Shown here: piece by piece, positions 14,675-47,338 of the stretch
Layout: each line of letters starts with the position of its first letter
Position numbering within the stretch: the stretch's first letter is position 1
NCBI GenBank assembly: GCA_030295235.1
Contig: AP026125.1
Coordinates: 558,001 to 622,000 of the forward strand
From: Fistulifera solaris
Lineage: Eukaryota
Direction of reading: 5' to 3'
Length of the DNA: 64,000 bases
Made by a program: the position numbers and the translations under genes
Notes under the pieces: generated by a model
Seen by the model: the letters and a program-made list of their open reading frames with translations, nothing else
Database searches by the model: none
Told to the model about the DNA's origin: nothing

Positions 14675-14910
14675 CACGACTGCATTTCAGTCATGAATCG
14701 TGATATTTCAGTGCGAGACCTAGACCTTCGTTCTTTTAGCTAGATTATTAAAATAAACTATAGTAATCCATAGTATGATATGTACCTGCAACAGGATCTA
14801 ATATGCATGCTTTGATGTATCCTTATGTCGAATGGATCCTGCCCTCATTAATAGTATAAGCCAAAGTGTACGGGACTTTTTTCACGACTGCATTTCAGTC
14901 ATGAATTCGA
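14675..14910 (+). repeat. Direct-repeat pair of the palindromic motif CACGACTGCATTTCAGTCATGAAT (copies at 14675 and 14883)
   Basis: Identical 24-bp copies 208 bp apart in AT-rich intergenic DNA. The same motif occurs at 21677(-), 33325 and 33705, with variants at ~47088 and 47318. Confidence 0.85.
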
Positions 14911-15018
14911 GCTGCGAAATAAAAGAGCGCGGCGCGATCGATCGCATATTATCATTGGCAATTTTTCAAGTTCAATGTTGTATTTAATTAAAGCAAGAAA
15001 TAAGATCGCTGCAGCAGC

Positions 15019-16558
15019 ATGAAGATTCTCTTACACCCTCTAAAGGTCTCGTTCGTGTCCTACCTATTTCACGCAACATTCGTGGATGGATTCAGCGGCA
15101 ACACGCTCCCTACCGCACGATCGAGCACAACGGGCGTCGTTTCTATGACGAATAATGACTCGGAAGAACCATCCGACTCGGCAAACTCCAAAGGAACCCG
15201 CAGAGGTGCAGGAAGTGTGCGAAGGCGTTGCGTCGATTATCCGAAGTATGCATACGATGCAGGGACGAAAGAAGTGAAAGTTCTCACCTCCACCGGTACG
15301 TTGCCCTTCGTCGCTGCAACAGTATGAAATCTTCATTAAACTTATTGCTGTTATTTTAGGCTTGAAAGATGGTTCATTGAACGCGGAGGCAATGAGGACA
15401 CGATTATTGGAAGACCGATCGTATGCCCGAAGTGAGCCGTTTCTGATGGACAACATGATGAACCCTCCCACGCTGGCGGATTTGTCACCACCCAAGGAAG
15501 CCTTTCGGGACAAGTTTTTCATCAGCACCCCCGCCAATGTGCTTTCCTTCCTTGTTTCTTACTTGCTCTTTCCACCGATTATTCACGTCATGGAATTCGT
15601 GATCAATACATCGGGTCCGCAGCTCGAGGAAATATTGACGACGTATGCTCCGGGTGTTTCCATCCTGTACGGTACCTTCGTCTCATTGACGCTATCCATT
15701 TTATATAATCGTCAAAGAACAATCCAAGACAACGTCGCAATGGAAACGTCTTTGCTTTCGGTCATTACACGTAGTCTCATCAGTCTTCTCCGAGAGGATG
15801 AATGCAAGTTGATTGAAGCAGGACAGTGCGCGGCGGACCAAATTCGTACTCTGGTGAAAACCTCGAGAGGAGAGGAACTGATGCTGTTGATGTACAATGA
15901 TCCCTATGCGCGAATGATGGAAATCATTGATTTGTACGAATCTCAGCAAGGAGACGAGGTCAAGCAGAGAGCTTTGATCTCGTACTCGAGAGATACCATC
16001 CGCGAACTCATCAAATACCGTTCGAAACGCTTGAGCGACGAATCCTTGGCACTTCCTCCGACTCATTTCTTCATTTTGAACAGTCTTACGCTTCTCATAT
16101 TGTTGAGCTACACAGTGTCGGTGCTCGCTACTCTCGAAGCGAATGGAGATCCCTCGAATACAAGTTCCATACTATTCGGCTCGCTCGCATCGACCTACTT
16201 TCTATTTTACAATTTTGCCAAGGATTTGAACAATCCATTTCAGGGAGTTTATCAGGTACGTTACTGAGTATAAACTATTCTTCCACCTCGTATTGGTCCT
16301 GACGCAATCACAATTGTTGACGCAAAGATACGTCGAAGCTGCGCCGCCAGCCATCTTATGGGAATCAAATGGGTCATTGCGAACCATCCAAGTTTGAAAA
16401 ATTTTGTTGATTTCGAAGAAGTCAAGGAAGAGAATGGAGCAGTTTTAATTCGAAGTCCAGGTGTTGGAGATGTTTGGTTTGAACGCGACGATATTTATTT
16501 CGTGGACGGCAACGGAGACGGTTCACAGCCTCAGTCATCGTTTTGGAAAGGAAAATGA
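15019..16558 (+). CDS. Probable plastid-targeted membrane protein (DUF4239/bestrophin-like); introns 15296-15359 and 16256-16327
   Basis: Signal peptide ending 'VDG-F', several TM helices and the 'DLNNPFQGVYQIR' motif after splicing. GT..AG introns join the three ORFs in frame. Confidence 0.6.
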
Positions 16559-16673
16559 AAGATGAGCCTGTATCATCAAGGTCAAGCGTATTTGTCGTCG
16601 TATCGAAGAGTGGCTTCAAAGATTTCGTTGCAATGCTTTCGTTGAAAAATAATAAATGAAAATACAGGCTTCA

Positions 16674-17738
16674 TTACGCCCCACCGAGAAAATCCAAGAC
16701 GCTCTCATACACAACAAAAGTGACGGCGGCACCGGGTGCCACACGGAGTGCATTCGGTATAGCACCCTTGAAAAAGCCTATAAAACCTTCTCGTTGCCAC
16801 AAATGTCGGCCTGTAGCTAGCATACCTACATACTCACGACGTACTGCTTTAATTTCACCGTTTGCCATGAGTTCCAATGACTGAGAGCGTTGCTGCAAGC
16901 GTGCTTTGATCACCTGAAGGGGATACGTCGTAGTGCTGGCGGCACTAGAGGTTCCAGAAAGAATAGCACAGTATCAGTAACTGGCTTGTTTATCCGAGTA
17001 GTACTTTGTAGGTGTCAGAAAAACTTACACTTTTGCCACCGCTCCCATACAAAGATACCCCAGGGAAAGTTCAAACCGTTCCCAGACATTACTCGTATCT
17101 TCCCGCCTGGCTCGTTGGTAATGAAAGTGCTTTTTCAGATATTCATACACTACAAACTGAACTCCGCCATGCGAAGTCAGCAAGAGAGCGGGCCCGCTGC
17201 CGCGATACAACGCTAGAATGCCTTCTTCTCGAACAATGGTCCGAAACGCGTCTCTCATTCCCGCATACGGTTGAATGTTATGCATTTCACTGGATCGTTT
17301 CATTTGTAGTTGCATTCTCGTCTTCATGAGCCATATTGGATTGGTGAAGGCTACCATAATTCCTCCGGCAGCGACCGCCAGGGCAAAATTATCGAACGAC
17401 GTCAAAATCGACGCCCTTTCTCGACTCGTCATCGAATTTCCCATACGATGCTGTACTAACTGCTTTTTAAAGCCTTCATAAAAGAAAAAATATCCACCCC
17501 AGGATATCGCAGAACCAATGACCGCCGGCGTCCATCCCGCAAAGAACCCTCCCAGTCCTTCGTACTTGTAAATCAAGCCCGCCGCTCGCAACGCTCCCAG
17601 TCGTGATGACCTTCCCTCGCTTTCGTGTACTTGCAATCGCACTTTTATGATATCCAGCGGAAATAGAAGAGTCGTGGATACGGAGCCTCCCAAAAAACCC
17701 GCAATCAATGGAACGATGTTCTTCTGCTCCGTCGTCAT
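16674..17738 (-). CDS. Mitochondrial carrier family protein (folate/FAD carrier SLC25A32-like); one intron ~16945-17028
   Basis: Three Px(D/E)xx(K/R) repeats: PLDIIKVRLQ, PIWLMKTRMQ (the W variant typical of folate/FAD/NAD carriers), PLQVIKARLQ. Confidence 0.9.
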
Positions 17739-18044
17739 GGTTATGCTTTGGTTGTGCGAGCGATACCGACGAAAATGAAAAAAAAGGACGAGAGGAACAA
17801 AGCGAAACCGGCGCAAACACATCATCGTGTCGCACAAGTACCGAACTGTCGTTGCGGCATCTGAGCTGTCAAACGATAGTACCGACGTTGTTTTACGTAC
17901 CAACTCTACTACGTACGTAATTTGCCGTACATCGACGCATATCACACGCCGCTAAAGTGCCGCATTGCATTGCTTCATTATTCATTCACATAAAAGAAAA
18001 ATAAAATCGATTCTGCTGCTTATATCAAAACACAATTAACAAAA

Positions 18045-19263
18045 ATGTCAATAGAAGGACCGTTCGAATGGCTGGCGGGAGGTCTCTTTTCGGGAAGCAA
18101 CAAAAGGCGGCATTGAAAGCATCGATTCGTGCGGGGATGCGGTCGTATTGTTGAAGGGCATTGCGCAGTCGTTGCAAGAAATACTGGCTCAGACCGAGAA
18201 CAATGAGGCACCCGAAGAACCGGCGAATCTGTTAGCGGCACGCTTGCGTCGCTTGCGATTTCTCTTGTACGACGAACGAAGAGTACCGAAAGAAACCAGT
18301 AGTCGATGGGGTAACCATGCTCCGACCATGGTAGAAAACACTCTGCAAGGATTGCTGGGACCAGAGATGAATGATTTGATTCCCACATTACTCGAACATC
18401 TGGTAGTACTGCCCTTTGAAAGTCGAAAGGATGTTGCTGCTATTTTCAATTACTTGCTCGTGTCCGGGTTCGACGGAACGGACGCCGAAATTTATCGACG
18501 GCACATGATCCGGTTTCGAGACCATGTGGAACAGCACTTTCCGCGGGTGATATCCGCGATTCTGGCCGGACATGACCCCGCCGTGCACGGTCAAAAAGAC
18601 GTGTGTCTCCATTACGGCTCCATGTACCGCGCCTGTTTGAGGCACCCTGCCTTGTACCATCGCATGGTGGGAACGACCGAGTCCGTTCGGAGTTACGTAT
18701 TTCCTTTTCTGGATATATTTGTACATTTACCCAACTTTGAAGTGGCAAGTGATGCCATGGAAAGTCTGCGAGAGGTTATGACCGCGGGTCAAGGGAGTAG
18801 TAGTAGTCGCGATCCGCAGATCCAGCAGGAATTGGCGGAAATCGCCGCCACCTTTCTCGCTCGCGACTATGATGAAATATGGAATCGACGGTTTAATACC
18901 AATCTACTATCGGAGTCTGCAAATTACATGACTCGTCGAGTGGCGTTGCAGATTCTATCCACTGTTCTGTTGACAAGATCGAACTATTCTATCATGATAG
19001 AATTTGTGGCCAGCAAAACAAATCTAATTCTCATTATGAAGTTGCTCCGCGATACATCCCCGCATATCACGCTAGATGCTTTTCATGTGTTTAAAGTGTT
19101 TGTGGCGAATCCCAACAAACCACCCGAAGTTGTTCAAATTCTTCGGGACAATCAGGTCAAGCTCGTGAATTATTTGACGTCACTTCATCAGGAGAAAGAG
19201 GAAACAGACACTCAGTTCAGAGACGAGAAGGCTCTTATCATTGCAACCATTCAAGCACTATAG
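18045..19263 (+). CDS. MO25: MO25/CAB39 scaffold protein (5' end disturbed by indels ~18100-18140)
   Basis: 'NYMTRRVALQILSTVLL...NLILIMKLLRD..PHITLDAFHVFKVFVANPNKP...QFRDEKALII' matches the MO25 C-terminal signature. Confidence 0.9.
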
Positions 19264-19280
19264 ACACGAAGAATTTTGGC

Positions 19281-21567
19281 TTAAACATAATCGATTTGAT
19301 AAAGGCGAATATACCCTCGGGTGCTGAAGCCGAATTGCATTGCTGACAGCGCATACAACAGGAAGATAGCGGCAAAGGAGGCGCTCGATTTGGCTTGCGA
19401 TTGCAGGACTTTTGTCACATCATCGGTCGTCCACTCGGGGCATCGGATAGAATCAGACGGATCTTGGTCGCAAGCCGTACAGGTGTTGGCTTGATCAAGG
19501 AAGCAAGCAATGTTTCCCCGCACTTCCTCCGACAATGGATTTTCAACTAATGAAATCGAGAATGCTATGCTTCCGCCCACGATCCAAACAAGTAAGATGA
19601 AGACGATGGCGATAATGATTAGAAAGCAATTCACGGCGAGCATTTTGTACCGCTTATCTCTTGTGTTCAATATAGTGTACGAGCTGATGAACCACCCTAA
19701 AATCGAAGCAACAAAGAAAAGTCCTGCGCAAAGGGTTAAAAGATGATCTCATCGATTAGGTGATGGCCAAGGAGTGAAATGGAACAACTACACTTACCTC
19801 CTGCGGCAACGAAAAGCAAACCGACCCAAAATGTAGATGACCGGTCGGCTTGATTAATTAGCTCCGACGAGGACGAAAATACAAATAAGAGACCGTTACC
19901 AATACAACCCAAAATTGGAAGAGAGAACCACGCAGGGACGTTCGATTCTCTCGATTTTTGCACCAGGGGTCTCGAGATGATGCTTTCTAGGATTTTTACG
20001 ACCAGCAGTAGCTGAAAAGAGTGAAGAGGACGTCAGGAAAGCGTTCAACATCCTGTGCATAGGAGTAGAATAGTCTCACTTACCAGGAGCACTAGCACGA
20101 TTCCCCAGATAGCATTTCCGTAATAATATGCAATCATGAATTTATCAAATCTTTCTTGAGCATCCGCTCGAATCTCGCCACAATTGGTCACATTGAAATT
20201 GACCAAACACCAGCTCGTCACATTTTCCACTTCCGGAGCCGCACATAAGGTATTGTATGAACTACTTGGTTCACAAAAGGCTCTTCGAAAAGCGGCCAGG
20301 GACTCATCTCGCCACCCTGTAAATAGAGATAATGATATGAGCGACGAGAATCTCAAGGTTGTCAACAGAGACACCACAACTTTCTGACAACTTACAGTGC
20401 TTGACCCAAACCCTTGTTACTCGAAAGTAATCAAATAAACCGATCACAGAGTAAATCTAGATCGCAGTCGTTCAATTTTGAGAGCACGACATAAGCGATA
20501 CGCGTTCAAACGGTAGATGCACTTACCTGAATTGGAATGATCCAGAGGAGAAGCCACAAGTATCGAATGGCTCCCTTCAAGTTGACACTCCGTACAACAG
20601 GAACTATTACAATCGTCATGACCAGCAAAAGGAACGCAATACTACCCATGGTAAAGACAGCTCCATTGATATTCCATACGTGAGACAAAACCTTGATGTC
20701 GGCGGGGGTACTGTCCGGTCCTCGTACCGTACCCGTCGCATCATACTCCGTCACATCATGCTCCGCGATATCGGCCGTGAGGTACACAAACAGCATCGCC
20801 GCCGAAAACAACTGTATAAAGGCAAAGATGGCACAAAGAATATTTAAACGCTGCACAATGGCTCGATCGGTCGTTTGCGACAAGGGAAAGCACAGGAAGC
20901 AAGGTGCTTTCATGACCACACAGGCCGCCAGTCGATTCCAGCTGGGGCGTTTCTTCGCGAGCCAAGTGGGCAAGGGAATACCCCAGAGCGACGGTGGTGT
21001 TCGTTCATTATTTCGTTCCGTAGACCCGTCCGCAGGATGCGACGAGTCGTCATCGTCGTACAATTCGCTGGTAGGACTCGACAAGCCGACCATAGATGGC
21101 TGAATTTCTGTCGGCTCTTTTGAGGACGACCGTGTCGGATTCTCCGAGTCATCCTCCACATTCGTAGTGGATCGATTGTAGGATGAAAGACTCAATCGTG
21201 GAATGAGGCGCCTTTCGCCGGCAGGCGATGGCTTTGTTACGTTATCATTGAAAAGATCTTCTTCTGTAACTTGATATGCTTCGCCCGGTTCGGATGGGTT
21301 TTTGGAATATCGCCTCAGGAATCCTCGTTTCGGATGAAATTTTCGTTCTGGAGACCGCGGATCAGGAAAACTAGCCCCTCCGCTACTCCAAATCCTAGCT
21401 CGACCAAAGCTATTATTTTCCTCCGTGATTCCTCGAATGGGTAATCCGACCACATTTCCCTCGCTGAACGCTCGGCGCCGCGCCGATCGGTCGTCACGTG
21501 GTGAAAAGTCATGTTCATACTCTAAATCCTGGATGGAATAGTCTTCATACTCGTCGTCGCTTCCCAT
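19281..21567 (-). CDS. Multi-exon, multi-pass membrane protein of unknown function
   Basis: Consecutive minus-strand ORFs (20506-21567, 20045-20377, 19736-19963, 19281-19670) with TM segments and Cys-rich loops, separated by GT..AG-like gaps. Confidence 0.6.
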
Positions 21568-21676
21568 GTTCGATTATCTTTATGCATTCGAGATTTTTGA
21601 ACTGAGCGTTTATTCTTACACACCTTACACAAGGCCGTCTCGTGACTCAACACGAAGTTCGATCGTGGTTCTCTTT

Positions 21677-21733
21677 GATTCATGACTAAAACGCAGTCGT
21701 GCTTAAGCAATAGAGAGTACACTTTAGACTATA
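21677..21733 (-). promoter_or_regulatory. Minus-strand copy of the TATA..AAGTGTA-N16-CACGACTGCGTTTTAGTCATGAATC module
   Basis: Reverse complement of 21677-21701 is CACGACTGCGTTTTAGTCATGAATC, with TACACTT at 21718-21724. It lies ~110 bp upstream of the ATG at 21567. Function is inferred only. Confidence 0.5.
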
Positions 21734-21905
21734 TTTGTTGCTTGTGTCGCACCAATACACCCATCACAGCCACCAAAGAAAACATCGCAAAAGCATGATG
21801 ATTCTTTTCACTTGCATCACAACAAACCATTCTCCTAAAAAATATCTTTCATTGAGATTGATACCAGCATCTCCTACTCCTCATTTCCTTTGTTCTTTAT
21901 TCATC

Positions 21906-24550
21906 ATGATATATTTGTTCTTGGTGCTGACGCACATTCTTACTGACAGCGGTATTGCTTGGACAGCCTCCTTGTCGGATCGGCATTTTGTCAATTACAA
22001 TACACCCCGTTCTGTCAAACGTTACGCTTCGACTCCCTTTGAATCAGACTTGTACATTCCTCCGGAAAATGAAAACCCGAGATCAGCATTAGCTGTACCA
22101 GATGATACGCAACTTATACTGGGGATAAATAAATATTCGCATGATACGTCATTATGTGCGGCCGACGCCAACACGGGTAAAGTCCTGTTCGCCCTGTCCA
22201 AAGAGCGCATCACTCGTCGGAAGCATGATGCGGGGAATGTTGCTTCCTTGGTAGAAGTCTGTCTTGAGTCTCTCGATTTGCAGCTCGAAAATGTCCAGAA
22301 AGTTGTTATGAACAATCACCATCATCGAATCTTACCGATCGAAGAGAACAAACAGTATCACATGGAGTGGGAGTCGGCACTCCAAATCAATGCGGGACAC
22401 GAAAGTGGCTATGACGAACCCGAAAACACTCTATTCGATGCGGAACGCATGGAACTGTCGCATCATTTGGCGCACGCGTACAGCACAGCCGCGCAGGCCC
22501 CGTTTGATGCCGGTCTCTGTGTTGTCATGGACGGTATGGGTGACACCTACCGAACGATGTTGCAAGCACACGTGCAAAAGGATCACTCGTATGTGAGTGA
22601 CCTTAATTTTGGTGCAGATACGTTCCAGTGTATACCCAGTAACATCCAGGAATTGGCCGCCTCCAGTCCGTTTGATTTCCGTGAAGCAGAAAGTGTATAC
22701 CAGTTTCGGAAACAGACATCGGAAAACGGCGCAAAGATCGATATCTGGCCTATTTTCAAGCGTTTTACCCGAGAGAATTCTCCCCCGACTCTTTATAACC
22801 ATGGATTTGAAAACATGGACAGTTTGGGAGCCGTCTATTCGAGAGCGAGTACTCACATTTTCGGTGACTGGAATAGTTGTGGTAAGGTGATGGGACTAGC
22901 TCCGTGGGCCGGACATCGTTGGACCGATAGCAACGGATATGAATTAGCCCCGAGATCGATACCGGATCCTACTATGACCGGGTCCGTATATATTGGACAA
23001 GGCGACAATGTTTTGAAACTGGATAAGACATTGATGGAAAAAGAACCCTACTGCACACGAAATGATCCGGAGTTATTCAACCCAGTGGATGGTAGCATGA
23101 GAAAACGCTATGATTTTGATGACGACGACTTCACTTCTGGTGACAAAGCTGGACGGCGGTTACCTGCGTCGGTAGCTCTCAATGCGATATCGTTGGCAAG
23201 CCGTGTACAAGAAGACCTTGAAAATGTGGGACTAGATTTTGTGAAGCATTTCAAGGAAAAGACTGGCGAGACGAACCTTTGTCTTGCTGGAGGTGTTGCA
23301 TTGAACTCGGTGTTGAATGGTCGATTAGCTAGAGACATCGGATTCGAACAAACATTTATTTCTCCGTATCCGGGAGATGATGGCATCGCTGTTGGCTGTT
23401 GTGCTTTCGGGCTGTTTGGAAATAGTCGTCTGGGTATCAGCTCATCTATCCAGTCTGAGAATAACGCAATGAAAGTTTGGGACAAGCCTCTTTCCCCGTA
23501 CCTAGGGCCTAGCTACTCCGACGAGGAAATCAAAGAAGCAATCGAACATGCACGTCCTTGGCTCGAAATCGATATTGTACGAGATGAAGACCAACGACTT
23601 GAGATGATGGCTCGAGAGGTAGAATCTGGCGGGGTCGTAGCATGGTATCGTTCTCGCTCAGAGCTTGGTCCTCGTGCACTAGGACACCGCAGCATTCTTG
23701 CTGATCCTCGAAAGAAAGGCTTGGTAAGGTTTATCAACGAAGAAGTCAAAAGCCGCGAAAGTTTCCGTCCGTTTGCACCAAGCGTATTGGCCGAAGAAAC
23801 AGATGAGTGGTTTGCTATAGGGAAAGGCAGCCTAAACAACAATGTCAGTCCTTTCATGAGCATGACAGCGATTGTTCACAAATCAAAGCGAGCCCTTATA
23901 CCCGCAGTCACACACGTTGACGGTTCATCGCGCCTACAAACAGTAACGCGTGATGACGAACCTCTGTATCACAAATTTATTTCTAAGTTTTTGAGATAAC
24001 CGGCGTTCCGATGGTGCTGAATACGTCTTTCAACACCCTTCCTAGTGAGCCCATCGTCGAGACACCACACGACGCAATTCGGAGTTTTCTCTACTCCATG
24101 GGTTCAATTGAAATGCTCGTGATGGAGGACTACATTATCAAGCGAAAAAGAGCGGATGTTCGTAAACTACTTGGTGAAGCTTCAAATTCTGGAACGATAA
24201 AAACAGAACCCTCTTTCCCAAGGCGTACAGGCCCTGCTCACTTTGAATCATCCTTTACTCTAGAAGACGGAAACAACGAGAGCGTATCACCCAAAACACG
24301 TGTAAAAATGCCGGATAGACCCATGCACGGGAACAAGAACGAATGGTTTGAGCTTCTTGACGATCTCGAAGGAGAGATCCTGTCAGTTTGCGATGGAAAA
24401 GTATCATTGAATGATATCATGACATTCTACACTGCGGTAGATCAAGAAGAAGCTTTGGGCGAGAAGAACGTCGCCGATGCGCAGAACATTTTGCAAAACA
24501 TAGTCCACCGTTTAGTTCGACTTTATGAACATACGCTAATAAGTTGGTAA
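21906..24550 (+). CDS. Carbamoyltransferase, NodU/CmcH family, probable plastid presequence, C-terminal winged-helix-like extension; frameshift at ~23990
   Basis: 'SHHLAHAYS', 'VMDGMGD', 'GKVMGLAP', 'LAGGVALNSVLNG', 'ELGPRALGHRSILADPR', 'RESFRPFAPS', 'AVTHVDGSSRLQTV', 'VPMVLNTSFN'. One extra T in the T-run at ~23990 joins the two ORFs. Confidence 0.9.
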
Positions 24551-24627
24551 TTATAAAACCATTTGTTCTATGTAAGAATGTATAAAGTTTATTCTGATCT
24601 TCATCTATGATTCTAAAAGAAATAGTT

Positions 24628-27292: not shown

Positions 27293-27390
27293 TACTAGTC
27301 TTAATACCTTCTGTTTAATTTGAAAACTGATTGGCAAAGGACTTCGAATAACATTAGTGCGACAGAGTCCTAGTCTAACTATAGTCAAGC

Positions 27391-29205
27391 TTATAAACCC
27401 GATGTAGACTGGGAGGATAATACAGCTTTGCGGAGGACTTCGTTCTGTTCTCGGTAGCCATCGCGTTCGGCTTGTAGAACCATCATTTGTTTACGACAGT
27501 TCTTTACTTCCTTGACAAGAAGCTTCTTGGTTGCCCTCCATTCGCGTTCGTTTTCGGTCCATTTTTCCCGCTCAAACTGCAACATGTCACCCATGACGAC
27601 CGCCTTTTGTTCGGCTTGTTGTTTCATCGTTGCCATTTGACCACGCATCTCTTCGTCATTCTTCTTGTGCATCTGAGCTTCTCGTTCCAGCTCTTGCACT
27701 CGCCCGTCTAGAAATGCAATGACTTCTTGATCACTGGCGATTTGTTGAGATATTTTGGATTCATTGTCTCCAATAGCCGCCAAAGTCCCTTCCATATCCC
27801 TTACTTTAGCGATCAAAAACTGCTTGACTCCTTCCGTACTTTCTAATGTGGCGGCCAGTTCTGACTTTTCCTGCATAAGTTTCTCCACCAAACTTTCCTT
27901 TTGGCGCAACCGTTCCGTCATCACTATAATTGCGTTCAATTCCGCATCCGAAAGTTTCGATGCCATCGAGCTTGCCAGGGCGGCGTTCATAGGTTGCTGA
28001 GCGTCTGTATTGGATCGTAACGGAGTTCGTGGAGGTGACGGAGCGAATTTTCCTCCCCGAGAAGGCTGTAGCATGGATGAGAATAAACCGCGTATCCCTT
28101 CCGCCGCGGAAGCGGTCGTCATGGGGCTACTCTCGGAGCGGCGTAAGAAATGATGAGACGGAGACGATGACAACGGTGGTGACGAAGGTCCTGTCTGTGG
28201 TTCGGGATCGTTGACTTTACTGGACATTCCCGAAGCAACTTGAGTAGTTTGAGATGATGTGGCGGCAGTTTCCGTTGTCGCAATCGTCGAATTGTCAACA
28301 CTGTCATTTCCACTCCCATTTCCTAGCCCAAACAGTGTATCAACTCGACTGTACATGGATATGTTCACTTGAGCTGTATTGAGGATATCGAGAGCGTCGA
28401 GGTAGGCAAAAATTTGCATAAGAATCTTTGTTTCCAGGCTTTCCAGAGTCGGGGTATCTTCTTGGATATCTTCTTCGAGAGCGACGACAGAATGAGGCTG
28501 AACCACAGTCTCTGTAGAAACGAGCGTGTCTTCCGACTGTTCTAAAACTGGTTGCTGTATATTTGGTGGAACGTCTGTTTCTATCGTAAGTGGTGCGGGT
28601 ATCTCGATGGAAGCTGATTTTGTTACAGGAACGGAAGGCTCTGGCAATTGTACAATGGTGGCCTCTAGTGTCATCTTCGTTCCCTCTGTCTCTTTACTTT
28701 CTTCCTTTGCTTCTTCTCCTAACCTTTCAATTTTGGGTTTCTCTGGCTCCTCAGATGTCGGGTTTTGCTGAGAAACAGTTTCTTCGACGGGCGGTTCTTC
28801 CTGGCGACCTCGACTATCATTATTCCGCTTGGCTTCCACCAGTTCTTCCTCCATTTGAATGAGCTTCGCAACAACTTCATCATATTGCATCAAAAGATCT
28901 TCATGTTTTTGTTTAATTAGTTTCAGTTCACCCATTTGTCGACTCAACGCCCAAAGTTCTCGAACCAATTGATCCGCCACCTCTCGTTGCAAATGATAGC
29001 GTTCCTGAAGGAGCACTTTCGATTCTTCCAAGGCCCACTCCTGTTCCACCACCTTATCCTTCAAAAACTTTAGTTCCTGTGCATTGGCTAGCTGCTCCTC
29101 CAACTTTTCCGCAATTTCGACATCCACGACCATTTCTTTGAGGCATGTTTCGACCTTGGAACGAAGTTGGACATCCTCCAACGCACGGAGGAGTGTCGCC
29201 TCCAT
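27391..29205 (-). CDS. Coiled-coil protein with a central F-box-like motif
   Basis: Heptad-rich ends, with 'LESLETKILMQIFAYLDALDILNTAQVN' resembling an F-box. First ATG at 29205. Confidence 0.65.
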   Translation of the reverse strand: MEATLLRALEDVQLRSKVETCLKEMVVDVEIAEKLEEQLANAQELKFLKDKVVEQEWALEESKVLLQERYHLQREVADQLVRELWALSRQMGELKLIKQKHEDLLMQYDEVVAKLIQMEEELVEAKRNNDSRGRQEEPPVEETVSQQNPTSEEPEKPKIERLGEEAKEESKETEGTKMTLEATIVQLPEPSVPVTKSASIEIPAPLTIETDVPPNIQQPVLEQSEDTLVSTETVVQPHSVVALEEDIQEDTPTLESLETKILMQIFAYLDALDILNTAQVNISMYSRVDTLFGLGNGSGNDSVDNSTIATTETAATSSQTTQVASGMSSKVNDPEPQTGPSSPPLSSSPSHHFLRRSESSPMTTASAAEGIRGLFSSMLQPSRGGKFAPSPPRTPLRSNTDAQQPMNAALASSMASKLSDAELNAIIVMTERLRQKESLVEKLMQEKSELAATLESTEGVKQFLIAKVRDMEGTLAAIGDNESKISQQIASDQEVIAFLDGRVQELEREAQMHKKNDEEMRGQMATMKQQAEQKAVVMGDMLQFEREKWTENEREWRATKKLLVKEVKNCRKQMMVLQAERDGYREQNEVLRKAVLSSQSTSGL

Positions 29206-32951: not shown

Positions 32952-33324
32952 TCTGTAAAGCGTAATCGTATAGCGTCTAGACGAACGGGGTGCTTGTGCT
33001 TCCGATTCGGAAAGGGGGTGCGTTTTTAGACGTCTTTCGTCGCAATTTTTGTTTAGGCAAATGAAAACGAGATAGCTCTTGTGTGTGATAGAAAGAAACC
33101 GGGGTAGCCACTTGAAATATTACAAGCGTTCGCAGCACGGTGCCAGCAAATGAGAAAGGAACGAATGGCATTCTATTTTTCATCTTTTCTCGCCAGTTCG
33201 CAAAAAACGAAAGGGTCGTCAACAAAAATCTCCGCCGCTCACGATTGAGTACCGTTGTGTGCGGTAGGACGGTCTGCGTATAAGCAAACACGGTACTATA
33301 GACAATAGTGTTGTCCGTTTTCGC

Positions 33325-33732
33325 CACGACTGCATTTCAGTCAGGAATCATGATTCATTCGAGCAACACTGCTACCTCTCTTCCAATGATTCTGCTAATT
33401 TAAAAGGTGTAAATTGTCTTATCTATTTATAATAGCGCGCTGTGTCCGTGTGTGTGTCACGTAACGTAACGCTGGTCCCGGGTGTCCGAATCACGGGTGT
33501 GACGCTATCCCCGGGGATCGAGCCACCCGCTTGCGGGAAGGGCGAGAACGAAAAAAGCCCTGCAGGGGCTAGACGCCGAAGGCGGCTAGTTCTTAATAAA
33601 AGTAATAGTATTCATCAGTTTTTGCAATGCAGCGACGATTCATCATTCCGAAAGATCGGAAATCTCCGTATTTACTATAGGCCTCAAGTGTATATCAACT
33701 TGTCCACGACTGCATGTCAGTCATGAATTCGA
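33325..33732 (+). repeat. Second direct-repeat pair of the CACGACTGCAT(T/G)TCAGTCA motif (33325 and 33705)
   Basis: Left copy followed by GAATCATGAT and right copy by GAATTCGA, as at 14675/14883. Spacing is 380 bp, or 212 bp once the 168-bp Helitron-like insert is removed. Confidence 0.85.
33422..33589 (+). mobile_element. Non-autonomous Helitron-like element (168 bp)
   Basis: Starts A|TCTATTTATAATAG...GTGTGTGTGTCACG and ends with GC-rich hairpins (CCCGC-TT-GCGGG; CGCC-GAA-GGCG) then CTAG|T. Inserted between A and T with no TSD. It forms a GC-rich island in AT-rich DNA. Confidence 0.7.
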
Positions 33733-33883
33733 ACCAAAACCGGTGCGCCAGACAAAGACACACGTTGAAGCAATCGTCATCGCAAAAATGGAGGGAGACG
33801 AGAAAATGAACATCAACATCCAACATAATTGCCTTGCTCACATCCAACAAGAATACAGAAACGTCTCCTTGCACCTTTCCATC

Positions 33884-35381: not shown

Positions 35382-35526
35382 AAGCTAGGTCCGGTATAAC
35401 ACTCTTTGATAATGCTGTTTCTTTTTATGATTAGTCCCTAAGGCTCCATCGTTTATCACTACATCTCTAGCCAAACATAAAATGACGACGTGGATCGACG
35501 CAATAATGAAGTACTATACTATTCAT

Positions 35527-39546: not shown

Positions 39547-39694
39547 TAGGTATGGGTGAGCTAGCGTAATTGAACAATATACTTGTAATCAACATTTACT
39601 ATGTATTTCTTAAAGAACATTTTACATTTGGGCCGAACAAGGATGACACTCAACTCGTGGGAAATATCACCAGATACTTTTACAAGCTTATAGC

Positions 39695-40652
39695 TCAAAT
39701 GGACACAATGTGATCTTCTTCCATGACCTTTGCTTCTTTACTTTCCATATCGGACTCGTTCTTTACTTTAGAAGCATCTTCGTGTAGACTCTGGTCCAGG
39801 TGCGAAGCTGACGTCTGGCTATCCCCTCCCACGGAGCTCTGCAATGTTGATAAAAAGTGAAGAACGATCAGATACGGATACAAGTGGAGATGCAATAACA
39901 AGACACGATCCACTTACCTTATCGCCGTCTTTCTTCTGGCGTGCGTTCGCGGCGCGCTCTCGGCGTTTGCGATTCTTGATCTCCAGCTCGGCGGGGCTGA
40001 GTTTTTGATACCGTTCCCTTTCGAGTTTCGCGCGCCGGGCGTTTCGCTCTTTGGCATCGTCCGTCGTGAGAGAATGGTAGCGGTTGCGTTCTCGCTCCCG
40101 GCGCTTCTGGCGACTGTTTTCGGACTGACGATGATACTGCTCGCGTCTCTTCGAGTTGTATGCACGACGCTGCTCGGGGGTCATGGTAGCATAGCGCTGA
40201 CGGTCTTTCAATCTTCGAGCGGCCAGCTGCTCTTCGTGTGACAAAGAGCCTTTCTTTTTGGGTGGGCCAGGCTTCACTTCGTCCTCAACCGTCTTCTCGC
40301 GATAGCGTTTTCGGCGCTGCTCATTTTTCTTCTGTTGCGCTGCTTCTTCGGCGGCGGCAACCGCCTTATCGGAGTCTTCCACAGCCTCAACGGCCAACGC
40401 AGCGGCAAGAGCAGCTGCGTCATCGACCGCAGATGCTGCCTCCACAGCGGCAGCTGCCGCTTGCGCGATTAACATAGAAGTCGTGTCATCGGCTTTCGAT
40501 TTCTCGTCCTCTGCATCCTTGACATCGTCCAGGTGATCAACCTTGACATCGTCCAGGTGATCAACCTTGACATCATCATCGTGATGCTCTTCGTTCGTAA
40601 CGGGTACCGCGTCTTCCGCATCGGCGCTGTGAGAATGGTTTTCGTCGACCAT
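39695..40652 (-). CDS. Low-complexity protein with Ala-rich and R/E-rich basic repeats (possible nucleic-acid binder); intron ~39839-39917
   Basis: 277-aa ORF with repeated 'R.R..R.RY' units. A GT..AG intron joins it to the 39695 frame. Confidence 0.7.
40517..40574. repeat. 24-bp coding tandem repeat (2.4 copies; DDVKVDHL)
   Basis: CCTTGACATCGTCCAGGTGATCAA x2 plus a partial copy. Confidence 0.9.
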
Positions 40653-41327
40653 GATGGATGTTGGTCTTGACGTCTGTTCTTGGATGTGATGGGTCTGTCG
40701 AGGTCAGCCGTCTGTTAGCTTGTCTCGTTCGCTTGTTGACGTTATGTTGCGATGCAAGACCGCAAGACGGTCGGTTTTTGGGCCGGTCTGTTGTGTGCAT
40801 GGTGCGTGTGGTTTCGTTCGTTCGTTTCGTTTTTGAAATTTCCTTCGGATGGAACTTTCTCTGTAGGTTTTGTACTAAAGCCTACGGACATCCGGGCGAG
40901 ATAGATTTATTTAGCTACACACGACTACACAATGAACCATACTTTGTTTAATAATCGTAGAAAGATTACTGGACCTACGTAAGATGTGGATCTGAGTACA
41001 TTAGCTACTGGATCGAACGCGTACATTGTGTCCTATACTCATTCCAGTCTATACGGAAACAGTTAGTTACGGGGCAGACATACGACAAAACGTTATTTAC
41101 AAAACCACCTCACCGCTTACCGGTACCGAGTCGTAACCTGGATCAACCTTACAAGTACTTGTAGATGCCGGGGCCGGGTAGCTCTTTGATGCCGGTTTGA
41201 ATTTATTCTAAGGTTAACTTACATTCAACCAACTTTTACTAATTTCCAGAACCGACACATCATCACTCTTCGCGAAGCTTATAGTGAACTCATCCAAGTA
41301 GCTGACAATACCCAAATCCGTGACATG

Positions 41328-41885
41328 CTATAAGCTTTTGTGACGGTACCGTGCCTCTTTCAGCTGCTCAATGGATCTTTGTATAGAAAACGAGTCATTC
41401 CGAAGCCATAGAGCAGCCAATGTGGTTAGAAAGTTCCCCAGCAACAGTCCTTGATGGTACGTTACTGTAATTGAGGAGATTTCGTCTTCCCCTTGAATAA
41501 TCCTTCGAGCATGAAACAGAATCGAAGATCCCAATAATAAGCTTATCATCCAGGGAAGAACAAGTATCCACCGAAGTCGAGTTGTAGGAGTCGACGGCAA
41601 TGCCACACCGGGAGTCAACACATGCAAAGTTGCCGTCACTAGCACGTGAATCCAACGAAAGAGTCTTCCCGATGGAACCAAAGCGCCGCGCAGTTCCAAG
41701 AAAAGAAGCACACAAATAGAAAGTATAGCTGATCCTATACAAAGACCACGGAAGGCTTGATGGATCTCTCGTTGTTGCTTGTCCATTTCTTGCGCGAAGC
41801 GATGGATCATCTGGTCTTGATCGTCGGAGTCTAAGAGTTCCACCGCCTCGCTCCGTTGCGAATCTTGATTATTTCGTCTTCTCAT
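41328..41885 (-). CDS. Small multi-TM membrane protein, unknown function
   Basis: 185-aa ATG ORF with ~4 hydrophobic helices, 'LLDSDDQDQMI' N-part and 'L..ARYRHKSL' C-terminus. Confidence 0.7.
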   Translation of the reverse strand: MRRRNNQDSQRSEAVELLDSDDQDQMIHRFAQEMDKQQREIHQAFRGLCIGSAILSICVLLFLELRGALVPSGRLFRWIHVLVTATLHVLTPGVALPSTPTTRLRWILVLPWMISLLLGSSILFHARRIIQGEDEISSITVTYHQGLLLGNFLTTLAALWLRNDSFSIQRSIEQLKEARYRHKSL

Positions 41886-42195
41886 ATTCTTCTTCGGTAC
41901 AGCGAATTGTTCATTGATTTATTGTTGTTATAATGAATATCCTTGTCGATCAAACAAAAAGAATGGGCTAGTATTGCCGTTTGGCGTTTGCTTCTTTGCG
42001 CCCGTTTTTGCTTTCTGTCGTCGTTTTGCGTCGCGTTTCTCGTCCGCTGAGTAACGGTCCGACGCGCGAACAGTATTCCGCGGTGCGCGGTTCGTCGCGT
42101 TTTTCAAAAACTCTTCTCAACGTGACCTGCTATTATTGTTGCCCTTGTCATTCTACTTCCAACAGTAGCTTTTAAACTCGATTAACGAAGCAAAA

Positions 42196-43574
42196 ATGAC
42201 ATCGATGAAGCCACCGAATCGATGGGATGTTGCGGGATTTCCGGTATTCGCGCTGTCGTGGTTTGGCGATCCGGAGGACGGCACGTCCATTGTGGCCTGC
42301 AGTGGCGGTGGAGGCAGCGCCAAGACGGGGGTCAAGAACTACATTGCGGTAACGATCAATGCCGATCCGGAAGCGCGTCAAATTAGTACCAGAACCAATG
42401 TGAGTGAAGAGAAACTTGTGTTTTCTGGACGCGGAAGCGAAATTCTGACCTTGTCTTCTAGCTCGGCACGAAATTGCACATTTACAAAAGTCAACAAACA
42501 CAACAGTTATGGCTCCTTGCGGCAGTAGCACTGGAGAAAAGCGACATGGGAGGCGAAATTCATCGCTACAGTCTCCCCGATTGTCACCTGGATTGCTCTA
42601 TGAAGTTAGAGACCCCCGTGAGTGCATTGGCGGTCAGTCCGATGACGGACGTGATGGCGGTTGGTTGTGAAAATGGTACCGTGGCGGCCTTTGCATTGTC
42701 CGACGAAGGGTTTGGTGAACAGCTGTACACCTGTCAAAAACATACAGAGGAAGTGTGTTGCCTCACATTCGCCGTTCGAGGATCGAAGTTACTCTCTAGT
42801 GCGAAAGATGGAACGTGTCTTGTCTGGGATGACAAAAATGGATCTTTGTTAAGCGAGGTCACATGCGAGATTCCAGCGGAAGATCCTGCTTTGAATAAAA
42901 ACAACAATAAGAGCAAAAGAAAACCGAGGGCGAAGGGCAACGTGATTGTCAGAGGCTGCGCATTTGGAGATCTCGAAGGAAATATCTTTTATTCTGTCGC
43001 ATCGTACCGAATGGGAAGCTCCTATCTGTACAGATGGTTCGCGGATCGAAACAACCCATCACAGTATCAATTGCATGATCGAGTGGCTTGTACACAGTCA
43101 CCAGTATCGGCCATGTCCTTATCACAGGATGGTGGACTGCTTGTGATGGGAACAACGGAAAGCTCGGTGACGCTTTGGGGAACGGCCGAGTGGCGGCCGC
43201 TCAAAATCTTCCGCGACGTTCACGGATTTCTCCCTACCTGTGCGGCTGCCAGACCTTATCCCGTCGCTCTTCAAGGAGAAGAAGATGGAGTACAAGTTCA
43301 TGCCCGAACCGGATCAGGGGATGGCACCATTGCTTGTATGACTCTGCAAAAGTCAGCTCCAGGTGCGATATCGAAAGGGTCGTCGGGGGGATATTCATTC
43401 ATGTTATTTATGCACCGGCTACTTGTGGCGCTGATACTTGGCTGTATCTTTTCGCCAGTTGTGAAAGAAGCTCATACCCGATGCCGTACCTCTGAGACCA
43501 TGGTAACATGTCTATTGCAAGAAGGTTTCTATATCCCGAGTTCAAAGCTTGTCATCGAGACAAGGCCTTACTAG
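42196..43574 (+). CDS. SEC12: SEC12/PREB-like WD40 Sar1 GEF; intron 42400-42461
   Basis: K-loop 'GGGGSAKTGVKN', WD40 repeats and a C-terminal TM helix. The intron restores the frame. Confidence 0.85.
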
Positions 43575-43741
43575 GTACAAGTTTTTACGTGAAAGAAATA
43601 ATGAAAACGCTAAAAGGCTTACAGTGGTATTATCATTACAGTAGCTTTGCCCGGCGTAACTACGGAAGAAAGGTGTTTTCTCGTATTATCTGTACAGTGT
43701 GGGTGGACCAAGAAATCTGCCAAACTTCGTTGCGTGAACTT

Positions 43742-45035
43742 TTAAGATGATTCTTGCCCTGATGCCGCAAAAGCTCGAACGGTCCTTATGAATCCAACCA
43801 AGGCCTCGGCATCTTCTGCCGTTCGCAAGCGCTTATCGGCTGGCTCGGTATCGGATCCGCTCGTCGCTGTGGCCTGATCGTCGGATTGGTCGGAAAGCAC
43901 GCCTAGGCCGGCTGTCTTCTCGTGTATTTCGGGGCCTTCGTGAATGAGCCGTTGAACTTCTTTCATTTTATTCTCCAGGCTCCTCGATGCGTCGTCGCTA
44001 GAGGGGGCTTCACTGGTTGGGTCTTCAAGCAGTGACTGTGCTCTATCTAGCCAGGCTGCAGTTTGAACAACTGCAGTTTTCTTTGAATATAAGTGGCCGT
44101 CTTGTGGTTGTACTCCGGCGACAGCGGCAGTTGTCGCGGCTAACTTCTTGGCTGAATCACGTTGTTGTGATTCGAGTCGTCTATGCCATCGTTTCTCGAG
44201 ATGTAATAGTTCAGCCTGTAGGGAAAAATCAGTTAGGCTCAGTGTAAACGCGTAATGGAGATACTAGTATAAAGAGAGAATCCACAATACTTACTTGAGC
44301 TTTGTCGATGGTAGACACATTGTTTGGACTTCGGACTGCAGGATGAAATACGCGCTTACCAATACACGCGTCGCCAGTAAACTTTTTAGTTATCCTCATA
44401 GGGTCACACTGAAGTTTCTCGGAGAGATAAGTGCGCAAAGTTGTACCAGCGGGTGCATCAAGAAATCCTGAGTTGAAGTCTTGTATAACCCTTGCAACAT
44501 AAGCTTCCTCTTCAGCGGTCCATTTACCGCGCCTTAGTCTCCCATTCCTCTCTGAACCTAACAACTTTGATGCATCCGTATCAGAAATCGAAGTCACAAC
44601 AATCTGCGAAGGAATGAGGGCGGCAGCACTGTCGTCGGAACCATTCGACCTTGGCGACGTATCTTCTTCGGTTTTCTTCGCTCTCAATTTTCCCTCGGAA
44701 AACTCGTGCGCATTTGAGGGTTCTGTCATCTTGATATGCTGTTCTGGAGGCGCAAATTTCCCTGAAACACCTGCAGTCTCCTTTTCTAGTTTCGTATCGG
44801 CATCCTCATTTTTCAAAGCATTAACTTCAAGCAAAGCGGCCGGTAAAGTCGATGCTTCTTTGCCATGCACCTCATCTTTGTTGCTGCTACTCGTAACAAC
44901 ATTATCGGCGTCTGATACTGAGCGCTGAGCTTTCGCGTCGGGAGTTTGATTGTCCTGCTCAGTGGAGGGAACGCCTTCCAGCTTGGGCGACCCTTTTTCT
45001 GTCATTTTTAGCATCCCCGACAGAGAAGACTGCAC
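43742..45035 (-). CDS. Stramenopile Myb-like putative DNA-binding protein; intron ~44220-44295
   Basis: 'LRRGKWTAEEEAYVARVIQDFNSGFL....GTTLRTYLSEKLQCDPMRITKKFTG', followed by a coiled-coil exon and an 'EDAEALVGF' tail. Confidence 0.7.
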
Positions 45036-45497
45036 CTCTCTCCTTGCCCTATTTGGAGTCGATTTCCAACAAAACTTGACACTCCGTAGGCTCCACTGTA
45101 TGCAAGGCCCTCTTCAAATTACTCCATTGACTTGAAAAAGATACTTTATGTTGCAAGTTCATCGAAAAGAGAGGAGCAGATGGCCGGCCAGGATCAAGGA
45201 GATGATGGGAACTTTTTCCAATGGAGATTCGAGATACCGACTTCAACCTCCCAAACCTTCAAGCTGTCCAATTGGCTGTTGTATTATCCCAAGAGTACTT
45301 ACCGCGAACAGGTTGAATCGTGAACTTGATTACCGGTAAGAATCGATGAACTGTAGGAGAAACACAAGCTTCAATGAAGACAGCCAATGAGAATTCACCA
45401 CCAATTGCCCAAGCTTCCGACTATGAACGAAACTGTAGAACGGTTACTTTCTCTTTCGCGGTTTTTTTCTTTTGGTTGCGAGCTTGGTTGCGAGTGC

Positions 45498-45516
45498 GGG
45501 GGGGGGGGGGGGGGGG
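45498..45516 (+). repeat. Poly-G tract (19 G)
   Basis: Direct read of the sequence. Confidence 0.9.
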
Positions 45517-46181
45517 AAGCGCGGAACAAATGGGAAAATCAGCTGCTATTTTAATGCTGAAACTTCACTTACAAAACCGTCGACAACAATTGAAATGATG
45601 ATGCTGTGACTCCGGATTTTTTGTTGGCCTTGAACAAAGACGGACGACACAGAGTGGCACGATCGATTGACATTACCCTCGCGCCATTTTTAATGGAATT
45701 TCTTTCAACTCCGCCTCGATGAATCACGAATGACTTCTTTGCAATCACGAGTTCCATTGCTTTCCACTTTCTCTAGCATCGATTAGCTTATAGTACAAAA
45801 CATGTTTGATGTTTCGGAGCTAAGTTCACCATCGATGTGTCTCACAGTTTGATATATAGTAACTTTATCATATTGATAATTTTAGTACCGTTTGAAGTGA
45901 GTATATGCTCTGATAACGGTTGCGTGATTGATTTTAACGGTAATCGCTAATTGACTTCCGTGGTCCAAACGTCTCACAAGGTTATTTGCACGAGCAACGT
46001 CATTGGGGTACTTTTTGTATCGAAGTGCTCGCTCCTCGCTTTTGCTGTGTTGTCCGTTGCACGGCGCTCGAGCGAGGCATCGCAACAAAACCACAAACCA
46101 CCACGTTGTGTGCTGCAATTGGCTGTTGTTAACGATTGAAAGGCAGCACATCGTTTTGTTTATACCAAATTTAATTGAAAT

Positions 46182-46838
46182 ATGGATAATCCGTCAGCGT
46201 TTGACACCTGTCCAACCATTGCGCCCTTCCTGGGTTACGCGGGTGTGGCTTTATCGATTATTCTCGCGAGTGAGTGACCTACGATGTCCACAAGAACGAA
46301 TACTATATCGTTTGCTGACTGTGTTCTCTTTTCTATCATAGACACTGGGGCTGCAATGGGAACAGCTAGAGCAGGAGTGGGTATCATGCAAAGCGGAATA
46401 AAGAGCCCTGACCTTGTTTGGAGGAACTTAATTCCAATTGTCATGGCCGGTGTAAATGGTATTTATGGTTTGATCACCAGCATCGTTGTTCTTGGGTCGA
46501 TCGCTATGCCTGCTATGGGAGGAAATAACCGTTATTCACTGTATACTGGTTGTGCGCATCTCGCTGCAGGGCTTTGTTGCGGTTTAAGTGGCCTCGGTTC
46601 CGGCGCCTGCATCGGTATTGCTGGTGATGCCGCCATTATGGCTTGCGGATCGTACGATGTCGAATCAAAAAGATCGATTGGAAGACGCCGAGGCGACGGA
46701 AAGAAGAAATCTGGTGGCGGAGAAAAGTTATTTGTTGCAATGGTGTTGGTACAAGTTTTTGCTGGCAATATCGCTCTATACGGCTTGATTGCATCAATCA
46801 TTCTTAGTCAACAAATATTTTATTGCGGGGGTGAATAA
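46182..46838 (+). CDS. V-type ATPase proteolipid subunit c-like (divergent); intron 46270-46341
   Basis: Spliced 'MDNPSAFDTCPTIAPFLGYAG...NTGAAMGTARAG...NLIPIVMAGVNGIYGLI...HLAAGLCCGLSGLGSGACIGIAGDA...LYGLIASIIL'. Confidence 0.9.
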
Positions 46839-47084
46839 ACAATACAAAGTATACAGGCAAAGTAATTTCAACTTCGTCAATTCTACAAGAATAAGTTACC
46901 ATATAAACTCCATGAACACACTTCAGTCTCGAGGCATTGTCAAATTTTTATTTAAAGCTTTATATTATATCGTTGAACCAAGATCGCAAGAGGCCAATTG
47001 TTTCTGGTTACCAGCAGTTTCTGCAATGAGCTATGTGGTCCATAGAGCCATGATGATTGGCGTCGTCGACACAACTTGATCAAG

Positions 47085-47338
47085 GAGTTCAGTCGTGACT
47101 CGTGACACGACGGCGAAAAATATAATGATAACCAGATTACCAACTAAGAAGTATAATTCAAAGATTTCGTCGCGATTAAGGATTCGTGCCTAGACTAGCT
47201 ACTTTAACAAATAACTAAGATGAATTGCATTGTTTTCTACGATATTTTTGCGTCAAAATGCTGGCTGATTGTTGTCTGCTGAAAATATACTATAACAAAA
47301 AGTGTACCGCAATTTACCGTGACTGAATTTCAGTCACG
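47085..47338 (+). repeat. Divergent third pair of the palindromic module (partial copy ~47088, perfect palindrome 47318-47338)
   Basis: TTCAGTCGTGACTCGTGA at 47088 resembles left copies. CGTGACTGAA-T-TTCAGTCACG at 47318 is preceded by ACTATAACAAAAAGTGTA. Confidence 0.55.

What the first reader, a model, noticed from the sequence alone, without database searches (positions are those of the whole stretch)
14675..47338. Dispersed, architecturally conserved intergenic module: paired palindromic direct repeats ~210 bp apart plus a fixed TATA..AAGTGTA box
Seen: the imperfect palindrome CACGACTG-CATTT-CAGTCATG-AAT occurs as direct-repeat pairs at 14675/14883 and 33325/33705, as a divergent pair at ~47088/47318 and as a single minus-strand copy at 21677-21701. 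At the two clear pairs the left copy continues GAATC(G/A)TGAT and the right copy GAATTCGA, so the two ends are distinguishable. Every right-type copy is preceded by TATA-N3-5-AAGTGTA at a near-fixed distance (12, 12, 11 and 16 nt; 14864, 33686, 47300, 21718-21724). The rest of the internal DNA shows little similarity. Spacing is 208 bp at the first locus, 212 bp at the second after removing the Helitron-like insert, and ~240 bp at the third. All four point toward a downstream ATG (15019, 21567, 33884, 47880). Inference: this is either an undescribed multipartite promoter/chromatin-positioning element bound by a dimeric factor, or an old non-autonomous mobile or recombination-site family in which only protein-binding sites are conserved.
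Basis: partly seen in the sequence, partly recalled or inferred. Interest (0 to 1): 0.72.

Follow-up and report, generated by a model that had tools for sequence, protein, structure and literature searches.

The report
Diatom repeat with selectively kept palindrome
A short non-coding DNA repeat is scattered between the genes of a hybrid diatom, and at old copies one small palindrome has stayed nearly intact while the DNA around it has drifted, which suggests the cell now uses it as a protein-binding site near gene starts.

Summary
The palindrome is real but is not a pair of distinct ends. It is one part of a ~218-bp non-coding repeat unit (palindrome, body, TATA/AAGTGT box) found as single modules or short head-to-tail rows: 916 copies within 2 mismatches, 1749 perfect cores against 27 in control.

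The genome is a hybrid. All four window sites also exist in the homoeologous contig, so there is no empty site. Across 18 orthologous pairs the palindrome differs at 10.5% of positions, against 24-30% in adjacent DNA and 19.4% at fourfold-degenerate sites. Young copies, spread mostly in one subgenome, show no such excess conservation. Sites avoid convergent gene gaps (1 of 46), but orientation is not fixed.

Best reading (50%): a formerly mobile repeat whose palindrome is kept by host selection as a dimeric protein-binding site near gene starts. Binding, function and the mobilising enzyme are not shown. It failed or was inconclusive on tests for Helentron, MITE, TRIM, Crypton, snRNA promoter and a published diatom ARS motif. 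Earlier scan notes seem to describe the same family in other windows of this genome.

The parts
14675..14698 (+). Palindrome (arms GACTG/CAGTC, 5-bp spacer), first copy of locus 1; no box before it
   Evidence: homoeolog copy differs at 2 of 22
14699..14853 (+). Old unit body, 65% identical to family consensus; no paralogue found except the homoeolog (76%)
14855..14870 (+). TATA-N-AAGTGTA box
14883..14906 (+). Palindrome, second copy of locus 1; 112 bp before the ATG at 15019 (a bestrophin-like frame follows at 15278-16264; that this ATG starts it is inferred)
21678..21733 (-). Single module (box + palindrome) in a ~340-bp divergent gap between an unnamed gene (ATG 21567, minus strand) and a carbamoyltransferase-like gene (plus strand)
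33294..33348 (+). Module (box + palindrome 33325-33348), first copy of locus 2
33349..33675 (+). Unit body, interrupted by the Helitron-like insert
33422..33589 (+). 168-bp young non-autonomous Helitron-like element (A|TC...hairpin-CTAG|T); a later, separate insertion, absent from the homoeolog
33676..33728 (+). Module (box + palindrome 33705-33728), 155 bp before the ATG of the DXR gene (33884)
47077..47098 (+). Decayed palindrome; only the right half-site 47090-47098 remains
47227..47341 (+). Remnant body end, box (47288-47306) and variant palindrome (47318-47338, perfect 8-bp arms), between a V-ATPase c-subunit gene and a WW/FF-domain gene

Best explanation
SHOWN: a family of non-coding ~218-bp units (palindrome, ~150-bp body, TACTATA/AAAGTGT box, 13-14-bp variable link) lies only between genes, as a lone ~55-bp module or as rows of up to about nine palindromes. 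It is older than the split of the two parental genomes, and a later wave spread mainly in one parent. At old loci the palindrome has changed about half as fast as neutral DNA.

INFERRED: (1) Copies were spread by DNA copy-and-paste without target duplication. Most likely this was passive use of a rolling-circle (Helitron-type) enzyme (~45%), otherwise repair- or circle-mediated ectopic copying (~35%). Rows then grew in place by tandem duplication. (2) New copies are neutral. A subset landing on the 5' side of genes was kept because a two-fold symmetric host protein reads GACTG-N5-CAGTC, probably together with a factor on the box one to two helical turns away, and helps set promoter or chromatin state for unrelated, mostly housekeeping genes in either orientation.
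For: Orthologous pairs: 41 substitutions in 391 aligned palindrome positions (10.5%) against 24-30% in four adjacent segments (Fisher p 6e-11) and 19.4% at 27,631 fourfold sites (binomial p 1e-6). A simulation with the same selection rule predicts 16-23%; p<=0.005 in 8 of 8 settings.

Units found by body alone: 14 old units (body 64% to consensus) carry 2.4 mismatches per 22; 10 younger units (79%) carry 4.2. In 20 young loci the palindromes differ by 14-16% and the body by 12.7%.

In 165 distinct copies, arm positions are 93-99% conserved and the spacer 64-92%, with 0 compensatory changes in the five core pairs. A subfamily with a broken palindrome still formed rows at two loci.

Gene context: 1 of 46 classifiable loci is in a convergent gap against 13% by length (p=0.013); 0 of 18 on C5 and 0 of 23 on C6. 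13 of 18 occupied gaps on C5 are also occupied on C6.
Against: No binding, expression or chromatin data. Several old pairs have decayed in one homoeolog (47087, 193943, 214796), and 5 of 18 occupied gaps on C5 have no palindrome in the homoeolog, so many single sites are dispensable. The box and link are not measurably better conserved between homoeologs than other flanks (23.9% and 23.8% against 24.0-29.5%). Many mobile elements also avoid convergent gaps. Neighbouring genes share no function. The 18 pairs come from one 324-kb region, and 20 of 66 loci could not be classified for gene context. Short-tract gene conversion among ~1,700 palindromes is not excluded. No mobilising enzyme was found.
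Confidence: 0.5

Rival explanations
1. Purely selfish or neutral repeat. The palindrome is the site needed for copying, or is homogenised by gene conversion, and has no host role.
For: Ragged ends, turnover and row expansion. Young palindromes decay at the rate of the body. The young wave shares a subgenome bias with a young Helitron-like element. The host gaps are hot spots for several other repeats.
Against: A need for copying acts on source copies, not on inserted ones, yet old fixed copies with no close paralogue kept the palindrome through the subgenome split. A broken-palindrome subfamily still spread. Conversion tracts limited to ~22 bp would be unusual (own knowledge).
Confidence: 0.23
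2. Replication-origin or chromosome-maintenance element: a sequence-specific site marking where replication starts, about every 28 kb.
For: Clusters on C1 are on average 27.7 kb apart and slightly more even than random (CV 0.82 against 0.98, p=0.057). GC skew at fourfold sites rises across 15 shared old sites (+0.07; p about 0.002 at 6 kb and <=0.001 at 10 kb against class-matched gaps) and much less across 6 sites found on C5 only.
Against: The skew jump was not reproduced in 63 independent loci (+0.026, 95% interval -0.03 to +0.08; short flanks), was larger in young loci (+0.096), was negative at 5 of 15 sites, and is absent for T/A skew; 12 tests were run. ORC ChIP in Phaeodactylum found no shared motif (10.1101/2024.07.07.602421, passages). 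A copy resembling published diatom ARS motif 1 does not align with the unit.
Confidence: 0.12
3. Each unit is a small RNA gene or a SINE-like unit, with palindrome plus TATA as an external snRNA-type promoter.
For: Fixed 13-14-bp spacing from box to palindrome in 95 of 126 copies with a box. A conserved box lies ~70 bp before the first palindrome in a subset of young loci.
Against: No module in 300 bp upstream of 2 U6 and 2 U2 genes (read by eye). No Rfam match in 9 loci. Folding z-scores -0.84 and -1.19. The body is the part that decays.
Confidence: 0.08
4. Site-specific recombination site (lox/dif/att-like) of a tyrosine recombinase that inserts or excises ~218-bp cassettes.
For: Inverted arms around an asymmetric spacer; direct-repeat arrangement.
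Against: The spacer is 5 bp and variable between copies. Lone copies usually keep the upstream box and ends do not fall at the palindrome centre. The Crypton-like region has no module.
Confidence: 0.05

Closest known systems
CERP2/CELE2 MITE-derived promoters bound by HIM-17 in Caenorhabditis (PMC9757741; abstract and first part of Results read)
   Same: Hundreds to thousands of repeat-derived copies of a fixed motif arrangement; most copies inert, a subset conserved at gene 5' ends; lineage-specific later expansions.
   Different: Those are MITEs with the motifs inside terminal inverted repeats and have shown binding and promoter activity. Here the unit is head-to-tail, has no terminal inverted repeats, and nothing functional is shown.
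HINE (non-autonomous Helentron) elements carrying short satellite-like arrays, e.g. Cg_HINE of the oyster (PMC7492417; passages read)
   Same: Short rows of tandem units dispersed between genes, no target duplication, a conserved left box in some young copies.
   Different: No subterminal inverted repeat pair, no microsatellite and no common right end found. The palindrome sits in every unit, not once at the 3' end.
Published centromere/ARS motifs of Fistulifera solaris (10.1101/2021.11.10.468027; abstract, passages and section 7 read; supplements not seen)
   Same: Dispersed multi-motif intergenic repeats with subgenome-specific variants; by eye they share the half-site CGACTG-(A/C)ATTT.
   Different: A different family: a motif-1-like copy does not align with the unit (24.7% of shuffles score as well) and has no second arm.
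Alpha-satellite CENP-B box (recalled, not checked)
   Same: A short protein-binding box better conserved than the rest of a tandem unit of roughly nucleosome length.
   Different: Here the rows are tiny, spread evenly through gene-rich DNA and not centromeric; no AA/TT 10-bp periodicity was seen.
Replitrons (PMC10288648; passages read)
   Same: Copy-and-paste, direct repeats near the ends, fuzzy ends.
   Different: That paper detected none in diatoms; no HUH gene was found beside these copies; the direct repeats here are whole modules.

Membership tests
HINE/Helentron | 5' and 3' subterminal inverted repeats | tested here: not met
   No inverted copy of the left box at a common downstream position in 27 loci (scattered weak hits in 4)
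HINE/Helentron | Single 3' stem-loop module shared by copies | tested here: inconclusive
   Right ends cluster just after a palindrome but vary; some carry 31-bp repeats
HINE/Helentron | Central short tandem array; no target-site duplication | tested here: met
   Rows of units; no consistent duplication in 24 arrays, with three isolated 7-8-bp candidates
HINE/Helentron | Autonomous Rep/helicase partner sharing the ends | tested here: inconclusive
   PF14214 had no hit, but the control was silent too; 0 of 87 frames beside young copies had a transposase, Rep or reverse-transcriptase domain
Helitron1 non-autonomous | 5' TC and 3' hairpin + CTRR, inserted at A|T | tested here: not met
   Not seen at array ends; met only by the separate 168-bp insert
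MITE (TIR transposon derivative) | Terminal inverted repeats and fixed-length target duplication | tested here: not met
TRIM / solo LTR | Fixed TG...CA repeat ends with 4-6-bp target duplication | tested here: not met
   Ends fall at many unit positions
TRIM / solo LTR | Primer-binding site and polypurine tract | not tested
   not searched
Crypton / tyrosine-recombinase site | Site linked to a recombinase gene; crossover within a conserved 6-8-bp spacer (spacer length recalled) | tested here: not met
Replitron | HUH Rep gene between short terminal direct repeats | tested here: inconclusive
   No Replitron protein was used as query; none seen among 87 flanking frames; the paper reports none in diatoms
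snRNA-type external promoter | Present upstream of U6/U2 genes | tested here: not met
   0 of 4 genes, 300 bp upstream
Published F. solaris ARS/centromere motifs | Sequence match to the motifs | tested here: not met
   A motif-1-like genomic copy was aligned without significance; motifs 2 and 3 compared by eye only
Repeat-derived co-opted promoter motif (CERP2/CELE2-like) | Motif embedded in a repeat family and conserved at orthologous sites | tested here: met
Repeat-derived co-opted promoter motif (CERP2/CELE2-like) | Enriched at promoters | tested here: inconclusive
   Depleted in convergent gaps (1 of 46), enriched in divergent gaps (22 of 46 against 34%, p=0.036); transcription starts unknown
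Repeat-derived co-opted promoter motif (CERP2/CELE2-like) | Bound by a factor and needed for expression | not testable with these tools
   needs ChIP/DAP-seq and mutagenesis
Rfam RNA families | Covariance-model match | tested here: not met
   0 matches at E<=1 in 9 loci

The most novel reading that the evidence does not exclude
A lineage-specific, sequence-defined chromosome landmark at over a thousand loci (one per ~28 kb) that was seeded by a tandem-unit mobile repeat and is now read by a dedicated dimeric host factor. It would be either a repeat-built promoter/chromatin network or a sequence-defined replication-origin system in a diatom, still undergoing birth and death, with the two parental genomes of the hybrid carrying different young waves.
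Probability: 0.3. Interest if true: 0.8.

Novelty: new variant of a known kind. Interest (0 to 1): 0.5.

Why it matters
Few cis-elements are defined in diatoms (own knowledge; the motif search, listed none like this). A motif at over a thousand loci, with a built-in contrast between old constrained and young neutral copies and between two parental genomes in one nucleus, makes repeat co-option directly testable. If it acts on promoters or replication it would also be a useful part for expression or episome design in an oil-producing alga. If the selfish reading holds, it is an unclassified lineage-specific repeat of modest interest.

Tried and rejected
Coding repeat: one frame of the consensus is open for one unit, but unit lengths vary freely (204-241) and all copies are intergenic.

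Hairpin selection: no compensatory changes in the core; DNA fold only -3.5 kcal/mol with 5 pairs.

Other organisms: the metagenome scan gave 2 records of one locus, inside a gag-like frame and without the unit, so chance. Viral contigs gave 0. No related diatom genome was available.

Expression: no RNA holder listed. Of 3 runs laid, X1 covers the stretch evenly like DNA, and X2 and X3 are sparse contigs; no conclusion.

Clean empty sites: homoeologous gaps lacking the element are too diverged to read junctions (8 gaps aligned).

Nucleosome periodicity: none. Bacterial promoter scan: at chance level and not applicable.

Link with the 168-bp Helitron-like element: all 9 profile hits (8 distinct loci) lie within 340 bp of a palindrome in the same orientation, but only 2 come from unselected sequence. 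The genome-wide test was not done, so this stays open.

Replication skew: suggestive in one region, not reproduced.

Literature: searches (listings only, apart from five papers read in part) showed no description of this family; subscription journals, Repbase and supplements of the bioRxiv genome paper were not seen.
Full report
**Observation.** All six palindrome sites and four boxes are at the stated places, far above chance. The copy near 47088 is only a half-site. The window lies at G000:C5:558001-622000 in a 51.7-Mb genome of 62 contigs. Earlier notes call it a Fistulifera solaris-type hybrid diatom; that label is theirs. I showed directly that C5 and C6 are collinear homoeologs.

**What the unit is.** Genome-wide there are 916 matches within 2 mismatches of the 24-mer against 0 for the reversed control, 1749 perfect GACTG-N5-CAGTC cores against 27, and 143 exact full modules against 0. 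In 66 loci taken from the first 100 listed exact hits (4 overlapping loci dropped), 36 of 45 gaps between neighbouring palindromes were 196-241 bp. Alignment of 38 such units gave a 218-bp consensus along the whole length: palindrome, body, TACTATA/AAAGTGT box, and a link. The link is 13-14 bp in 95 of 126 copies with a box but very variable in sequence. The box therefore precedes first and last palindromes alike (20 of 25 each), and the proposed left/right tails do not generalise. On the first 1.94 Mb of C1, 100 cores form 68 clusters, 27.7 kb apart on average; scaling gives roughly 1,200 loci (inference).

**Age and turnover.** I compared 324 kb of C5 with 330 kb of C6. Fourfold-degenerate sites are 80.6% identical (27,631 sites, K2P 0.23). 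All four window sites are present in the homoeolog; 13 of 18 occupied gene gaps on C5 are occupied on C6 and 5 are not. The body of the first window unit finds only itself and its homoeolog (76%), so it is old. A different body finds 86 matches at 71-100% (40 of 192 candidates scored), with 10 on C5 and 0 on C6: a later wave biased to one parent, though homogeneous rows also exist on C2 and C4. A subset begins with a 16-bp box; 26 of 28 such loci have a palindrome downstream, mostly at +67 to +85, but only 1 of the 66 first loci has it. Array ends are ragged and show no consistent target duplication in 24 arrays. None of 87 long frames beside young copies carries a transposase, Rep, recombinase or reverse-transcriptase domain (one aspartyl-protease hit not followed).

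**Selection on the palindrome.** In 18 orthologous pairs (those with alignable flanks and at least one side within 5 mismatches, decayed partners included) the palindrome differs at 41 of 391 positions (10.5%), against 23.8-29.5% in four adjacent segments. Simulating the same selection rule under neutrality predicts 16-23% (p<=0.005 in 8 of 8 settings). Against this, alignable non-coding DNA as a whole, which includes UTRs, introns and missed exons, differs by only 12.6%, so the palindrome resembles other constrained non-coding DNA and is not exceptional. Units found by body alone agree: 14 old units with 64% body identity have 2.4 mismatches per 22, and 10 younger units with 79% have 4.2, row ends without a palindrome included. 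In 20 young loci chosen by body, palindromes are no better kept than the body (14-16% against 12.7%). Arms exceed spacer in conservation and the five core pairs show no compensatory change in 165 copies, which fits base-specific reading by a symmetric protein, not a hairpin. A subfamily with a broken palindrome still formed rows at two loci. The box and link showed no excess conservation between homoeologs.

**Gene context.** With a simple gene caller, 46 of 66 loci could be classified: 22 divergent, 14 same-direction with the module pointing to the gene start, 9 pointing away, and 1 convergent (background 13% by length, 19% by count; p=0.013 and 0.0007). On C5 and C6, 0 of 18 and 0 of 23 were convergent. 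Orientation is at most weakly biased (14:9, p=0.40; 24:11 with C5 added, p=0.04). Neighbouring genes are functionally unrelated.

**Rivals tested.** snRNA-type promoter: absent upstream of 2 U6 and 2 U2 genes. Structured RNA: no Rfam hit, weak folding. Recombinase site: no link. Replication origin: GC skew rises across 15 shared sites (+0.07, p about 0.001-0.008 at 6-10 kb in both homoeologs, which are not independent) but was not reproduced in 63 independent short loci and was larger at young loci, so it stays a hint.

**Comparison with known systems.** It works most like the MITE-derived HIM-17 promoter motifs of Caenorhabditis (PMC9757741), and is laid out most like HINE-borne dispersed satellite rows (PMC7492417), but fails or is inconclusive on the defining ends of each. 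It is not the published diatom ARS motif 1. Nine paper searches found no description.

**Verdict.** A real, abundant, apparently undescribed repeat family. Most likely a once-mobile repeat with a co-opted dimeric binding site near gene starts (50%). Interest 0.5; new variant of a known kind.

Noticed in passing
window 11088-12054 and 61321-63300: A separate 206-208-bp satellite built on CAGA-N3-TCTG palindromes. Both rows are absent from the homoeolog; at 61.2-63.4 kb it occupies the gap where C6 has a palindrome pair of the family studied (L079:5683 and 5914). Its reverse complement is weakly similar to the unit (score 37, reached by 1 of 300 shuffles).
   Followed up: partly
window 33422-33589: Young 168-bp Helitron-like element; 46 listed matches at 86-100% identity, none on C2, C4, C6 or C8; often near the palindrome family in my sample.
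   Followed up: partly
L148, L153, L157, L158, L160, L161, L192 flanks: A ~31-bp minisatellite with a CCCAGA-TTT-TCTGG core flanks many young rows; 24 motif hits in the C5 stretch against 0 in the C6 stretch.
   Followed up: partly
L092:501-2016 and L106:3000-4400: Divergent 230-248-bp subfamily with a broken palindrome, in rows of about six, not found at the same places on C6.
   Followed up: partly
L081:6868-8097 and L116:3750-4660: A ~1-kb duplicate on C6 of a gene 3' end plus one unit, lying next to a copy resembling published ARS motif 1.
   Followed up: partly
   Followed up: partly
G000:C7:522012-524085: The module recurs four times at a ~676-bp period, i.e. within a larger tandem unit.
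   Followed up: no
L028, L182, L189: Another small element, starting with an A-run, appears inserted just after or within the module at several loci.
   Followed up: no
window 40514-40585: Three copies of a 24-bp repeat inside a long open frame on the minus strand.
   Followed up: no
L162:2364-3170: Frame with an aspartyl-protease domain beside a young row; host or retroelement origin not checked.
   Followed up: no
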